NCBI GenBank assembly: GCA_031273195.1
Contig: JAISSJ010000164.1
Coordinates: forward strand, 1-10,786
Direction: 5' to 3'
From: Candidatus Fibrimonas sp.
Lineage (GTDB): Bacteria; Fibrobacterota; Fibrobacteria; Fibrobacterales; Fibrobacteraceae
Length of the DNA: 10,786 bases
A program made the translations under genes and the position numbers. The notes beneath the pieces were generated by a model. That model ran no database searches. It was not told the origin of the DNA and was given only the letters and a program-made list of their open reading frames with translations. Position 1 is the stretch's first letter. Each line of letters starts with the position of its first letter. Shown one piece after another: positions 1,447 to 2,877 of this stretch.

Positions 1447-2877
1447 ATGTTCGCCATCACAGGCTTAATAGGTTCGGGTAAATCTTTTGTTTCTTCTATT
1501 ATAAGAGAAGCAGGATTTGAGGTTTTGGACGCAGATGCCCTGGCTCATGAGCTTTACAAAGAAAATGCCGAACTGCGGAAAAAAATCGCACAGGAATTCA
1601 GCGATGAAGCGATAACGGAAAATGGTGTAAACCGTGCTTATATTTCAAAACTTGTCTTCAGCGAACCGGAAAAATTGAGCCTTTTGGAGAGCATTGTTTA
1701 CCCTGTTTTGCTGAGCGAGATTGAAAGGATAAATCCGGTTTTTGTTGAAGCTGCAGTTTTATATAAATGCCCTGAATTTGCAGAAAAGATGAAAGAGATT
1801 TGGGAGGTGGAGGCAAGCGAGGATTTGAGGAAGGAAAGGCTTTTGGAAAGAGGGCTTGCGAGGAGTGATGTTGAGAGCAGGATGCGGGTGCAGGGAGTTG
1901 AGAGTGGAGAGTTGAGAGTTGAGAGTTGTGTAGAAAGAATTGATAACAACGGGGCAAGGGAAGAGTGCAGGGAGAAGGTTTTGAAATTTTTAGAGAAGCA
2001 CATTCCGAATATAATTCGGAGAGATGTTTCATTGAAAGAACATACAACATTTAAAATCGGAGGCAATGCGAAGTTTTTTTCAGAGCCAAATGACATAGAG
2101 GAAATCAAGGCTTTGTTCGCATGGTGCAAGGAGTTTAAAATTCCTTATTTTATTTTGGGCAAAGGCAGCAATGTGCTTTTTGACGATGAAGGATACAGAG
2201 GACTTGTGATAAGATTGAGCAAATTTGATGCAGGCAACTCTTTGCATTCTTTAATTCAAACCGCAGCGAATCAAGGCTTAGGGGGCTTGGAAAAACTGGA
2301 AGGCATTCCGGGCACCATCGGCGGAGCGATTTTTATGAACGCCGGTGCGCACGGCCAACAAATCTCGGACTGCATAAAAAGCGTAACTTCCATAACGGCA
2401 AACGGCGAAATAAAAACAAGAACAAAAGAAGAATGCGAATTTTCTTACAGAAGCAGCATATTTAAAAAACTCTCAACTCTCAACTCTCAACTCTCAACTC
2501 CAACAATCCTCTCCGCAGAATTCAATTTCACTCCAATGCCCAAAGAAACCATAAATAAAAATAGAAAGGAGGTTTTAGCCTGGCGAAAATCAAAACAGCC
2601 TTTGCAATACCCAAACGCCGGTTCCATATTCAAAAATCCCGCTGACAATTTATCAGCAGGTGCCTTAATAGAATCCTGCAACCTAAAAGGCTTTTCAATC
2701 GGCGATGCTCAAATATCCGAACTTCATGCCAATTTTATTGTGAATAAAGGAAGTGCTACAGCAAAGGATGTCAAAGCCCTGATGGAAAAAATAGTTCAAA
2801 GCGTTAAGGAAACTCGCAGCGTGGATTTGGAACCGGAGATTATAGTATTTACCTTCCCCTTTCTTCGCACCCCTTGA
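1447..2877 (+). CDS. coaE-murB: Bifunctional fusion: dephospho-CoA kinase (CoaE, ~aa 1-186) joined directly to UDP-N-acetylenolpyruvoylglucosamine reductase (MurB, ~aa 187-476).
   Basis: N-terminus ITGLIGSGKSF...LDADALAHELY is the CoaE P-loop, and ...RMRVQ...ERIDNNG is the CoaE C-terminal region. It is immediately followed by MurB motifs HTTFKIGGNAKFF, LGKGSNVLFDDEGYRGLVIRL, FSYRSSIF, PNAGSIFKNP and ANFIVNKGSATAKDV. One uninterrupted 476-codon frame, so no frameshift is needed. Confidence 0.8.
   Translation: MFAITGLIGSGKSFVSSIIREAGFEVLDADALAHELYKENAELRKKIAQEFSDEAITENGVNRAYISKLVFSEPEKLSLLESIVYPVLLSEIERINPVFVEAAVLYKCPEFAEKMKEIWEVEASEDLRKERLLERGLARSDVESRMRVQGVESGELRVESCVERIDNNGAREECREKVLKFLEKHIPNIIRRDVSLKEHTTFKIGGNAKFFSEPNDIEEIKALFAWCKEFKIPYFILGKGSNVLFDDEGYRGLVIRLSKFDAGNSLHSLIQTAANQGLGGLEKLEGIPGTIGGAIFMNAGAHGQQISDCIKSVTSITANGEIKTRTKEECEFSYRSSIFKKLSTLNSQLSTPTILSAEFNFTPMPKETINKNRKEVLAWRKSKQPLQYPNAGSIFKNPADNLSAGALIESCNLKGFSIGDAQISELHANFIVNKGSATAKDVKALMEKIVQSVKETRSVDLEPEIIVFTFPFLRTP
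1896..1930 (+). repeat. Tandem heptanucleotide array (AGTTGAG)x5: three perfect and two one-mismatch copies. It lies inside the CoaE-coding part, with one more dispersed copy at ~1871-1877.
   Basis: Sequence reads agttgag agtggag agttgag agttgag agttgtg. It encodes VESGELRVESC. Confidence 0.9.
2472..2499 (+). repeat. Tandem heptanucleotide array (CTCAACT)x4 perfect, plus a degenerate fifth unit. This is the exact reverse complement of the 1896-1930 unit and lies inside the MurB-coding part.
   Basis: Sequence reads ctcaact ctcaact ctcaact ctcaact ccaacaa. It encodes LSTLNSQLSTPT in a variable MurB loop. Confidence 0.9.

What the first reader, a model, noticed from the sequence alone, without database searches (positions are those of the whole stretch)
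1871..2506. Two inverted arrays of a 7-nt tandem repeat inside the coaE-murB ORF
(AGTTGAG)x5 at 1896-1930 in the CoaE part and its exact reverse complement (CTCAACT)x4-5 at 2472-2506 in the MurB part are 540 bp apart, and both are translated in frame. Heptamer tandem arrays are frame-unstable, since ±1 unit shifts the frame and only ±3 units preserve it. This makes the locus a potential slipped-strand ON/OFF switch for an essential bifunctional gene, which is odd. The two arrays are also mutually complementary over ~28 nt. In the mRNA or in ssDNA they can form a long-range duplex that loops out the CoaE–MurB junction and the MurB N-terminus. That could act as a translational or structural regulatory element, or as a substrate for inversion or deletion by recombination. 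I know of no precedent for paired inverted heptamer arrays inside a housekeeping ORF.
Basis: seen in the sequence. Interest (0 to 1): 0.6.

Follow-up and report, generated by a model that had tools for sequence, protein, structure and literature searches.

The report
In-frame heptamer repeat arrays in coaE-murB
Two short 7-base tandem repeats of opposite orientation really do sit in frame inside a fused CoaE-MurB gene of a termite-gut Fibromonadales bacterium. They belong to a widespread class of bacterial heptamer microsatellites tolerated as loop insertions in housekeeping proteins, and nothing shows they form an on/off switch or a conserved RNA element.

Summary
Array A (1896-1930, AGTTGAG sense) and array B (2472-2499, four exact CTCAACT) lie in frame in the CoaE-MurB ORF 1447-2877, 541 nt apart.

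- **Stop removal.** A perfect (AGTTGAG)n has a TGA in every frame. The only two deviations in array A (1906 T>G, 1929 A>T) remove exactly the two in-frame TGAs.
- **Copy number.** Orthologues have array B empty, with 1 unit or with 4 units, a difference of exactly 3 units. Every sequence examined stays in frame.
- **Independence.** A occurs without B in several lineages, so the predicted A:B RNA duplex (-61.7 kcal/mol) is not conserved.
- **Location.** Both peptides map to low-confidence loops of the AlphaFold model.
- **Precedent.** The same arrays lie in frame in P-type ATPase, Mfd, UvrA, UvrD and GlnRS genes of other phyla. A related genome has an inverted heptamer pair inside mutL.

Best reading: slippage-generated heptamer simple-sequence repeats, kept where they encode harmless loops. 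The phase-switch reading is not supported.

By-product: inverted heptamer-array pairs almost always have the G-rich arm 5' of the C-rich arm (72 to 1). C-sense arrays often abut start codons.

The parts
1447..2877 (+). ORF of 476 aa encoding a fused dephospho-CoA kinase (CoaE) and UDP-N-acetylenolpyruvoylglucosamine reductase (MurB). It is the host gene of both arrays.
   Evidence: ORF list and translation. Pfam: CoaE 3-169, FAD_binding_4 211-324, MurB_C 369-467. 23 fused orthologues, those with names labelled Fibromonadales.
1896..1930 (+). Array A: five units of AGTTGAG (the G-containing, C-free sense), two of them imperfect. With the leading GG (1894-1895) it encodes G150-C161, GVESGELRVESC.
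   Evidence: TRF 1895-1928. Mismatches to (AGTTGAG)5 only at 1906 and 1929. Present with the same length in L120, L121, L123, L124, L130, L325, L326, L327 and L328.
1906..1908 (+). Codon GGA (Gly154), where a perfect array would read an in-frame TGA.
   Evidence: Restoring the perfect array gives GVES*ELRVES*. Orthologues carry GGA, GGG, TCA or AGA here. GGA, TCA and AGA are each one step from TGA; GGG is a synonymous change of GGA.
1927..1929 (+). Codon TGT (Cys161), the second position where a perfect array would read an in-frame TGA. The array ends here.
   Evidence: Orthologues carry TGT, TGC or TTT.
2469..2501 (+). Array B: ACT + four exact CTCAACT (2472-2499) + CC, in the G-free sense that is open in all three frames. 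It encodes LSTLNSQLST within K341-T353.
   Evidence: TRF 2468-2504 and exact matches. The same long form occurs in L120, L121 and L328.
2479..2499 (+). The three units (21 nt, 7 codons) by which the long form of array B exceeds the short form seen in close relatives. The placement within the array is arbitrary.
   Evidence: L122 and L124 read AAA AAA CTC TCA ACT CCA; L327 has the same short form with ACA for ACT. L123, L125, L142 and L326 have no array and read AAA AAT GAA ATA/ACG.
1400..1426 (+). A G-poor, C-rich degenerate repeat (GCAAGCT CCCAACC CCTCAAC TCCCTC) in the 5' leader, ending 20 nt before the ATG. It contains one exact CTCAACT in the same sense as array B.
   Evidence: TRF 1409-1428 and a heptamer match at 1415-1421. 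The stretch is present in the window and L122 but absent from L120, L121 and other relatives, which share only the last 20 nt before the ATG.
1862..2535 (+). Extent of the predicted long-range RNA stem. Arrays A and B form its core, with weaker pairing of the flanks. This is a prediction only.
   Evidence: Minimum-free-energy and centroid structures of 1860-2540, z = -7.67. The core duplex is -61.7 kcal/mol. It is not conserved in orthologues.

Best explanation
The two arrays are heptanucleotide simple-sequence repeats, a kind of bacterial microsatellite found in many phyla and also elsewhere in Fibromonadales DNA. They most likely grow and shrink by slipped-strand mispairing during replication.

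Inside this essential ORF, selection lets through only two kinds of variant:
- changes of three units at a time, which keep the frame;
- sequences without in-frame stop codons.

The CTCAACT-sense array B is open in every frame, so it can stay perfect. The AGTTGAG-sense array A would carry a TGA every 21 nt, so it survives only with those two codons substituted. Both arrays encode short flexible loops at permissive surface positions of CoaE and MurB.

The arrays arose at different times, A before B. Their complementarity follows from both being built of the same unit in opposite orientations. It is not evidence of a selected RNA or DNA structure.

Shown here: the anatomy, in-frame reading, stop removal, the 3-unit polymorphism, independent presence and absence, the loop location and the family's distribution. 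Inferred: slippage as the generating process and the absence of a function.
For: **Stop removal.** The only two mismatches of array A to (AGTTGAG)5 are 1906 T>G and 1929 A>T. Both fall inside the two in-frame TGA codons, and a perfect array would translate as GVES*ELRVES*. By my own estimate the chance of this for two random substitutions is about 0.01-0.02. Orthologues carry GGA, TCA or AGA at the first site and TGT, TGC or TTT at the second, all one step from TGA. In L330 a related array (GAGAATT/GAGAATG)n at the same site likewise has G where a TGA would arise.

**Length changes in whole triplets of units.** Array B is absent, 1 unit or 4 units long in relatives of 79-95% identity, the last two differing by exactly 21 nt. 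All 23 fused proteins and 24 loci remain in frame.

**Independent history.** A occurs without B in L123, L325 and L326. Short B occurs with A in L124 and L327, and without A in L122.

**Loop location.** In the AlphaFold model (mean pLDDT 83.5), confidence falls below 50 at residues 151-160 and 345-347, and the 341-350 block averages 55.

**A dispersed family.**
- Exact (CTCAACT)3 occurs in at least 119 stretches of species-representative genomes from many phyla, including 4 Fibrimonadales contigs. My own estimate of the chance expectation is about 0.3.
- Further copies lie in Fibromonadales loci outside this gene.
- 37 of 159 arrays in genomes and 32 of 100 in viral contigs are read through in frame in the CTCAACT sense (an independent ORF call gave 50 of 51 in that sense).
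- Pfam confirms in-frame arrays between domains of P-type ATPase, Mfd, UvrA, UvrD and GlnRS.
- Other heptamers of the same base composition are also common as arrays: 36, 18 and 16 stretches against 55 in viral contigs. This agrees with the published over-representation of heptamer repeats (Mrazek 2007, as cited in PMC4679880 and PMC4692102).

**A possible in-situ seed for A.** The array is in register with the native codons AGA ATT GAT (R-I-D) that follow it. In L330 the array is built directly from AGA ATT GAG AAT.
Against: - **Codon conservation.** Codons inside the arrays are more conserved than synonymous sites elsewhere in the gene. L328 has 21 of 21 identical codons against a background of 0.68, L325 11 of 11 against 0.70, and L124 17 of 17 against 0.74. 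That suggests homogenisation or nucleotide-level constraint rather than neutral decay. The lineages compared are not independent.
- **Clustering.** Flanking Fibromonadales DNA holds only about 25 period-7 arrays per Mb. Two or three arrays in one 1.4-kb gene is therefore unlikely for independent events.
- **No seed at site 2.** The array-free orthologues have no proto-repeat at site 2 from which slippage could start. The 12 nt that distinguish short B from the empty site (ACTCTCAACTCC) are the exact reverse complement of the first 12 nt of array A. This was read from the sequences.
- **Turnover at site 1.** Sister lineages carry arrays of the opposite orientation or of a different unit at the same CoaE site.
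- **Limits of the data.** Slippage itself and read-level stability were not observable with these tools.
Confidence: 0.68

Rival explanations
1. Local templated seeding. Array B is not independent of A. It was seeded by an inverted template switch that copied the start of array A into site 2, and then expanded by three units. More generally, heptamer arrays would beget inverted copies nearby, giving a quasi-mobile family of polar hairpins. This rival concerns origin and is compatible with the main explanation.
For: - The insertion that distinguishes short B from the empty site, ACTCTCAACTCC, equals the reverse complement of 1894-1905, including the non-repeat GG/CC.
- Both arrays have the form ACT + 4 units + CC.
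- A is phylogenetically older than B.
- Two arrays in one gene is unlikely at about 25 arrays per Mb.
- Inverted pairs are very common in the family and have a fixed polarity: 25 to 1 in genomes, 17 to 4 in viral contigs, and 72 to 1 for all heptamer units. The window pair has that polarity.
Against: - The 541-nt spacing is at the far end of the gap range. Most pairs are 6-150 nt apart, though a few reach 420-603 nt.
- CC follows roughly 7% of arrays elsewhere (my count from the listing), so the 12-nt identity could be coincidence within a periodic sequence.
- No intermediate was seen, and no mechanism explains the polarity.
Confidence: 0.2
2. Functional RNA element. The A:B long-range duplex, or the G-free array B acting as an internal unstructured leader, regulates translation or stability of the coaE-murB mRNA. 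For example it could pause ribosomes at the domain junction or permit internal initiation.
For: - The duplex is in both the minimum-free-energy and the centroid folds, with z = -7.67, and is -61.7 kcal/mol on its own.
- Codon-level conservation of the arrays exceeds the synonymous background.
- Elsewhere, C-sense arrays lie within 10 nt upstream of ATG-initiated ORFs far more often than G-sense arrays: 15 of 48 against 1 of 44 in genomes, and 14 of 39 against 0 of 23 in viral contigs.
- In unfused relatives a C-sense array at site 1 lies about 30 nt or more upstream of the murB TTG start.
Against: - The pairing is not conserved. A occurs without B in L123, L325 and L326, and there is only a 1-unit B in L124 and L327.
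- No covariation is possible or observed.
- Both arms lie inside a translated ORF, where ribosomes unwind structure.
- No Rfam family matches the window.
- The next in-frame ATG after array B is 37 nt away.
Confidence: 0.07
3. Phase-variable contingency locus. Slippage by one or two units switches CoaE-MurB off and on within a population.
For: Heptamer tracts can slip. Heptanucleotide tracts do drive phase variation in the Haemophilus HMW adhesin (PMC8262952). Array B varies in copy number between relatives.
Against: - Every variant seen differs by 0 or 3 units, and every ORF is intact.
- The gene encodes two essential housekeeping activities, and no second copy is seen in the window.
- At 4-5 units the tracts are short.
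- Three assemblies at 95-96% identity have identical copy numbers.
Confidence: 0.03
4. Assembly or sequencing artefact that created spurious repeats.
For: The window is probably a metagenome contig, and repeats can be mis-assembled.
Against: Identical arrays occur in independent assemblies from different samples and from an NCBI metagenome-assembled genome (L120, L121, L130, L328). Diverged but homologous arrays occur in L123, L124 and L325-L327. The ORF stays intact.
Confidence: 0.01

Closest known systems
Long simple-sequence repeats of heptanucleotides in prokaryotic genomes (Mrazek, Guo and Shah 2007, as summarised in PMC4679880 and PMC4692102)
   Same: Head-to-tail 7-nt units longer than chance. 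Heptamers are the most abundant long-unit class. Slippage is the proposed cause. Arrays of several unrelated heptamers are comparably frequent.
   Different: As summarised in PMC4679880, that survey noted that units whose length is a multiple of three are the ones most likely to sit in coding regions. Here 7-nt units sit in frame in an essential gene, made possible by 3-unit steps and by removal of stop codons.
TAACTGA direct repeats of Beggiatoaceae, Cyanobacteria and Bacteroidetes (MacGregor 2015, PMC4679880)
   Same: A heptamer array family dispersed in a genome, usually 2-6 copies. One orientation has stops in all three frames, so in-ORF copies are in the other orientation. A few copies lie inside ORFs, including murG and an RNA polymerase beta-prime-like gene. 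Arrays often lie close to start codons. The units share the core AACT (GATAACT against CTCAACT).
   Different: The unit differs. In Beggiatoaceae the stop-containing orientation lies before start codons, whereas here the stop-free, G-free orientation does. Only one indirect (inverted) repeat was reported there, whereas inverted pairs are frequent here.
Cyanobacterial STRR heptamers (Mazel et al. 1990; cited in PMC4692102 for Calothrix PCC 7601) and GGGAATC/GGGGAYT repeats of Xanthomonas and Nostoc (PMC4692102)
   Same: Tandem heptanucleotides. Length varies between close relatives. Occasional inverted pairs can form stem-loops.
   Different: Those are described as mainly intergenic, and the latter as G-quadruplex forming. 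AGTTGAG cannot form a G-quadruplex, and the copies here are translated.
Phase-variable simple-sequence contingency loci (Haemophilus, Neisseria; for example HMW1A heptanucleotide tracts, PMC8262952; review PMC11868660)
   Same: A slippage-prone tandem tract associated with a gene.
   Different: Those tracts are long and sit in dispensable surface or modification genes or their promoters, with frame or spacing changing between cells. Here the tracts are short, the gene is essential, and only frame-preserving variants are seen.
Rickettsia palindromic elements inserted in frame in housekeeping genes (Ogata et al. 2000; from my own knowledge, not checked here), and REPINs (PMC3116915)
   Same: Short repeated DNA tolerated as in-frame loop insertions in conserved proteins (the Rickettsia elements). 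Inverted doublets forming hairpins and dispersed through a genome (REPINs).
   Different: Those are unique-sequence palindromes of about 100-150 nt, or 20-40-nt REP units spread by a dedicated transposase. The elements here are plain tandem heptamers with no associated enzyme identified.

Membership tests
Heptanucleotide simple-sequence repeat (long SSR) | Head-to-tail copies of one short unit, longer than expected by chance | tested here: met
   TRF reports 4.9 and 5.4 copies at 92-96% matches. The heptamer occurs 10 times against 1.11 expected, with 0 of 200 shuffles reaching 10.
Heptanucleotide simple-sequence repeat (long SSR) | Copy number differs between relatives by whole units | tested here: met
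   Array B has 1 unit in L122, L124 and L327 and 4 units in the window, L120, L121 and L328. Array A did not vary in length among the 9 sequences that carry it.
Heptanucleotide simple-sequence repeat (long SSR) | Generated by replication slippage | not testable with these tools
   Needs read-level data or mutation-accumulation experiments.
Dispersed heptamer-array family of the TAACTGA or STRR type | Many arrays of the same unit scattered in the genome, in both orientations | tested here: inconclusive
   Other CTCAACT-type arrays occur in Fibromonadales loci: L124 3468-3500, L127 19600-19633, L132 9808-9827, L137 3523-3546, L138 4245-4263, L328 3125-3158, L016, L022, L044, L069. The density of all period-7 arrays in flanking DNA is only about 25 per Mb against 10 per Mb in controls. 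No complete genome of this organism was available.
Dispersed heptamer-array family of the TAACTGA or STRR type | Unit sequence TAACTGA, or STRR1-3 | tested here: not met
   The unit is CTCAACT/AGTTGAG. It shares only the AACT core with GATAACT.
Phase-variable contingency locus | Variants that shift the reading frame or promoter spacing between cells or strains | tested here: not met
   All 23 orthologous proteins and 24 loci are in frame, and only 0, 1 or 4 units are seen at site 2. Read-level heterogeneity could not be tested.
Phase-variable contingency locus | The gene is dispensable and typically surface- or host-interaction-related | tested here: not met
   Pfam identifies CoaE plus MurB, which act in coenzyme A and peptidoglycan synthesis. 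That these functions are essential is established knowledge and was not tested here.
Conserved cis-regulatory RNA structure | Base pairing conserved or covarying across orthologues | tested here: not met
   One arm is missing or reduced to 1 unit in most orthologues. No Rfam family matches the window.
Miniature inverted-repeat or REPIN-like mobile element | Terminal inverted repeats bounding a non-host cargo that is absent from empty sites | tested here: not met
   The 541 nt between the arrays encode the conserved CoaE C-terminus and MurB N-terminus. These are present in all orthologues, including those without arrays.

The most novel reading that the evidence does not exclude
Heptamer arrays are not passive microsatellites. 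They would form a cross-phylum class of polar elements, in which an array spawns an inverted copy a short distance downstream, always with the G-containing arm 5' of the C-containing arm. The G arm would end the upstream ORF by supplying a stop in any frame. The G-free arm would serve as an unstructured leader directly before the next start codon, and the hairpin would couple or gate the two. On this reading the coaE-murB pair is a domesticated in-ORF instance: array B was seeded from array A by inverted template switching, and the arrays are kept homogeneous at the nucleotide level.
Probability: 0.15. Interest if true: 0.6.

Novelty: new member of a known kind. Interest (0 to 1): 0.33.

Why it matters
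For this gene, the result removes a tempting but unsupported idea, a slippage switch or riboregulator in an essential fused enzyme. It replaces that idea with an ordinary explanation that makes checkable predictions.

The case is still a clean illustration of how a 7-nt repeat can live inside an essential ORF. Length changes only in steps of three units, and the stop-bearing orientation survives only after its two TGA codons are substituted.

The wider survey run to test the claim gave three regularities. I found none of them stated in the two heptamer-repeat papers I read (PMC4679880, PMC4692102), and no paper in the library holds the array sequence:
- a near-absolute polarity of inverted heptamer-array pairs (72 to 1);
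- a preferred length of four units;
- an orientation-specific position of the G-free arrays just upstream of start codons.

If these hold genome-wide, they would make the long-noted excess of heptamer repeats in bacteria experimentally approachable.

Tried and rejected
- **Known RNA families.** An Rfam scan of the whole window gave no match at gathering scores.
- **Literature by sequence.** No paper in the library contains the array (CTCAACTCTCAACT and its rotations) or the peptides (LSTLNSQ, SELRVES).
- **Mobile element with cargo.** Rejected, because the sequence between the arrays is conserved coding sequence in all orthologues.
- **Integron attC sites.** The core heptamers GTTRRRY and RYYYAAC resemble the unit. 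By my own comparison an attC site has the opposite polarity (RYYYAAC first), so this was rejected.
- **CTCAACT as a uniquely special word.** This idea was tempered by controls. Three same-composition heptamers also form arrays in viral contigs, at 16-36 stretches against 55.
- **Strong enrichment of heptamer arrays in Fibromonadales.** With the gene masked the enrichment is only about 2.4-fold, on small counts.
- **Elhai's small dispersed repeats of Nostoc.** The paper is not in the searchable library, so the comparison was left out.
- **Not attempted because not possible here.** Read-level copy-number heterogeneity, and a census of a complete genome of this organism.
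Full report
**1. The observation**

The window holds one long ORF at 1447-2877 (476 aa). Pfam identifies CoaE at residues 3-169, FAD_binding_4 at 211-324 and MurB_C at 369-467. The closest proteins are 23 fused CoaE-MurB sequences of 430-481 aa. Where a source names them, the label is Fibromonadales or Fibromonadaceae. 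An upstream gene with a Fib_succ_major domain fits that origin.

Tandem Repeats Finder reports two period-7 arrays, at 1895-1928 and 2468-2504. The repeat finder reports them as a 39-nt inverted repeat, 92% complementary, with 530 nt between the arms. The heptamer occurs 10 times in the window against 1.11 expected.

Array B is four exact CTCAACT (2472-2499). Array A is five units of AGTTGAG (1896-1930) with exactly two mismatches, at 1906 and 1929. Both are read in frame.

**2. Why array A is imperfect and array B is perfect**

Because 7 and 3 share no factor, any frame passes through all three codon phases every 21 nt.
- (AGTTGAG)n therefore contains a TGA in every frame.
- (CTCAACT)n contains no stop in any frame and always reads LNSQLST.

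Restoring a perfect array A in the window gives GVES*ELRVES*. The two real mismatches (T>G at 1906, giving GGA; A>T at 1929, giving TGT) are exactly the two in-frame TGA codons.

Orthologues that carry array A have other codons at those positions:

| Position | Codon | Where |
|---|---|---|
| First TGA site | GGA | window, L120, L121, L123, L124, L328 |
| First TGA site | GGG | L130 |
| First TGA site | TCA | L325, L326 |
| First TGA site | AGA | L327 |
| Second TGA site | TGT or TGC | most sequences |
| Second TGA site | TTT | L328 |

In L330 a related array (GAGAATT/GAGAATG)n at the same site has G precisely where TGA would arise. The G-sense array is thus a stop-purged microsatellite.

**3. 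Comparison with orthologues**

The protein alignment and DNA from 24 metagenome loci and 7 further contigs give the following picture.

Site 2 (MurB, between YRSSIFK and ILSAEF) has three states:
- empty: AAA AAT GAA ATA/ACG in L123, L125, L142 and L326;
- short: AAA AAA CTC TCA ACT CCA in L122 and L124, with ACA for ACT in L327;
- long: the short form plus exactly three units (21 nt, 7 codons) in the window, L120, L121 and L328.

More distant relatives have K-M-L-D-E-I-I and no repeat, so the array is derived.

Site 1 (CoaE, between RMRVQ and the IDNNG strand) varies more:
- The G-sense array is present, always at the same length, in nine sequences of 79-96% identity.
- It is replaced by non-repeat sequence in L122 and L125.
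- In the sister lineage with unfused genes, the same site holds C-sense arrays in L132, L134, L138 and L139 (CCCAACT/TTCAACT/CTAAACT, CTCAACT, ATCAATT).
- L133, L136, L137, L140, L141 and L143 instead hold a different heptamer, (GGGACAT/GGGATAT)n.

A third site, in a MurB_C loop, carries (CCCAACT)4.7 in L331.

Array A occurs without B (L123, L325, L326), so the two arose at different times, A first. All sequences remain in frame. Three assemblies at 95-96% identity have identical copy numbers.

**4. Where the peptides sit**

An AlphaFold model built from the alignment has mean pLDDT 83.5 and pTM 0.82. Confidence drops below 50 at 151-160 (array A peptide) and at 345-347, and the 341-350 block averages 55 (array B peptide). 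Both stretches lie between well-predicted helices and strands. They are surface loops or linkers.

**5. The RNA-duplex idea**

Folding 1860-2540 as RNA puts the A:B duplex into both the minimum-free-energy and the centroid structures (-216 kcal/mol, z = -7.67). The duplex alone is -61.7 kcal/mol. The pairing potential is real.

It is not conserved, however. Most orthologues lack one arm or have only one unit of B. The flanking pairs are not kept. Both arms are inside a translated ORF. No Rfam family matches the window. I rate a selected RNA function as unlikely.

**6. Is there precedent?**

My own estimate of the chance expectation is about 0.3. The hits come from Bacteroidota, Planctomycetota, Verrucomicrobiota, Acidobacteriota, Gemmatimonadota, Cyanobacteria, Chloroflexota and four Fibrimonadales contigs. 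A further 55 stretches occur in viral contigs.

About a quarter to a third of the arrays are read through in frame: 37 of 159 in genomes and 32 of 100 in viral contigs. An independent ORF call placed 50 of 51 in-ORF arrays in the CTCAACT sense. Pfam confirms LSTLNSQLST-type insertions between domains of a P-type ATPase, Mfd, UvrA, UvrD/PcrA, GlnRS and a family-2 glycoside hydrolase.

Inverted pairs inside ORFs also exist:
- (GGGGTAT)n followed by (ATACCCC/AACCCCA)n at 1568-1699, inside the mutL gene of the Fibrimonadales contig L329;
- RRVESRE followed by STLNPQPS in a planctomycete uvrA.

The literature already describes several related things:
- the over-representation of heptamer repeats in bacteria (Mrazek 2007, as cited in PMC4679880 and PMC4692102);
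- TAACTGA arrays that are mostly intergenic but sometimes in ORFs, including murG, with stops in all frames in one orientation (PMC4679880);
- STRR and GGGAATC repeats (PMC4692102).

Controls show that CTCAACT is not unique. Three heptamers of the same composition give 36, 18 and 16 array-bearing stretches in viral contigs.

**7. Most likely explanation**

These are slippage-generated heptamer microsatellites, filtered by selection for an intact frame and an absence of stops, and tolerated in loops. Array A may have grown from native codons. It is in register with the AGA ATT GAT that follows it. In L330 the array is visibly made of AGA ATT GAG AAT.

Four things do not fit a purely passive picture:
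- Codons within the arrays are more conserved than synonymous sites elsewhere (for example L328, 21 of 21 against 0.68).
- Two or three arrays in one 1.4-kb gene is improbable at about 25 period-7 arrays per Mb of flanking DNA.
- Site 2 has no proto-repeat in the array-free orthologues.
- The 12-nt difference between empty and short B equals the reverse complement of the first 12 nt of array A.

These points motivate the rival in which B was seeded from A by an inverted template switch. I give that about 0.2. It is compatible with the main account.

**8. By-products of the survey**

- **Polarity.** Inverted pairs of heptamer arrays have a near-absolute polarity, 5'-(G-containing arm) ... (C-containing arm)-3'. 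The counts are 25 to 1 for CTCAACT in genomes and 17 to 4 in viral contigs, where the four exceptions are merely the gaps between successive pairs. Across all units the count is 72 to 1, including 24 to 1 for units that were not search patterns. The window pair has this polarity, but its spacing is at the long end of the range.
- **Length.** The modal array length is four units.
- **Position relative to genes.** C-sense arrays lie within 10 nt upstream of ATG-initiated ORFs in 15 of 48 cases in genomes and 14 of 39 in viral contigs. The figures for G-sense arrays are 1 of 44 and 0 of 23. ORFs commonly end in or just before G-sense arrays: 74 cases against 22 for C-sense.

A selective reading would explain the polarity for intergenic pairs: the G arm supplies stops, and the G-free arm is a favourable unstructured leader. 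It does not explain the polarity of in-ORF pairs. This remains unresolved.

**9. Verdict**

The feature is real. It is a new member of a known kind (in-frame heptanucleotide repeats) and not a switch. Interest is modest for the locus itself. The polarity rule and the start-codon association deserve a proper genome-wide test.

Noticed in passing
L001-L331 (for example L020 5100-5186, L071 7207-7279, L095 886-952, L329 1568-1699); window 1896-2499: Inverted pairs of period-7 arrays almost always have the G-richer arm 5' of the C-richer arm: 72 to 1 overall, and 24 to 1 for units that were not used as search patterns. Because each pair is a palindrome, the rule holds on both strands. No explanation is established.
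   Followed up: partly
L001-L119 and L200-L254 (for example L071 7245-7279 followed by attattATG; L091; L095; L116 7170-7197): Arrays in the G-free CTCAACT sense often end 1-10 nt before an ATG that opens an ORF of at least 80 codons (15 of 48 and 14 of 39). The opposite sense almost never does (1 of 44 and 0 of 23). ORFs often stop inside G-sense arrays. This resembles the start-codon proximity reported for TAACTGA repeats.
   Followed up: partly
L200-L324 and L001-L119: The commonest array length is exactly four units (28 nt): 56 of 100 CTCAACT arrays in viral contigs against 25 with three units. Simple slippage would predict a monotonic decline in frequency with length.
   Followed up: no
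window 1400-1426: A C-rich, G-poor degenerate repeat containing one CTCAACT sits in the 5' leader and ends 20 nt before the coaE-murB start codon. It is present in the window and L122 but absent from the 95%-identical L120 and L121, whose upstream flank is unrelated beyond the last 20 nt.
   Followed up: partly
L329 1568-1602 and 1656-1699 (mutL gene 510-2243): An inverted pair of a different heptamer, (GGGGTAT)n followed by (ATACCCC/AACCCCA)n, lies inside the mutL ORF of a Fibrimonadales genome, downstream of the midpoint of the gene.
   Followed up: partly
L331 4261-4293; alignment A1 columns about 420-445 (P0004, P0012, P0024-P0032): A third insertion-prone site lies in a MurB_C loop. L331 carries (CCCAACT)4.7, encoding PTPNSQLPTPN. 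P0004 has an 18-aa insertion there, and the unfused MurB proteins have 7 extra residues.
   Followed up: partly
L131-L143 (for example L139 2132-2290) compared with window 1950-2020: Sister lineages have separate coaE and murB genes. There murB starts at a TTG preceded by AAGGAGG inside the 3' end of coaE, in a different frame. The fused form retains a C-terminal CoaE helix that the unfused form lacks.
   Followed up: partly
window 7512-7689 and 10178-10355: A 178-nt direct repeat at 93% identity. One copy is the 3' part of the DNA-alkylation-repair gene (7498-8169, minus strand). The other lies next to a truncated DJ-1/PfpI ORF, which suggests a partial duplication or rearrangement.
   Followed up: no
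window 1-10786: The base composition is mosaic: about 50-55% GC at 1-1500 and 3000-5000, 40-44% across coaE-murB, and 32-46% from 5000 onward. That last stretch holds RhuM-family and DUF3990 genes.
   Followed up: no
L327 5342-7435: A relative's contig carries a bAvd-like gene and a reverse transcriptase next to Fib_succ_major-domain genes. This is the layout of a diversity-generating retroelement.
   Followed up: no
P0002 and L122 compared with P0007 and the window (alignment A1): The N-terminal half of P0002 is identical to P0007 and its C-terminal half to the window protein. This points to recombination between lineages or a chimeric assembly, with the crossover near alignment column 300.
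   Followed up: no
window 662-701: A 12-13-nt tandem repeat (AAAAGCCTCCAAA, 3.2 copies) lies inside the Fib_succ_major ORF 157-1230 and encodes a Lys/Pro-rich linker (EKPPKKGSKKTSK).
   Followed up: no
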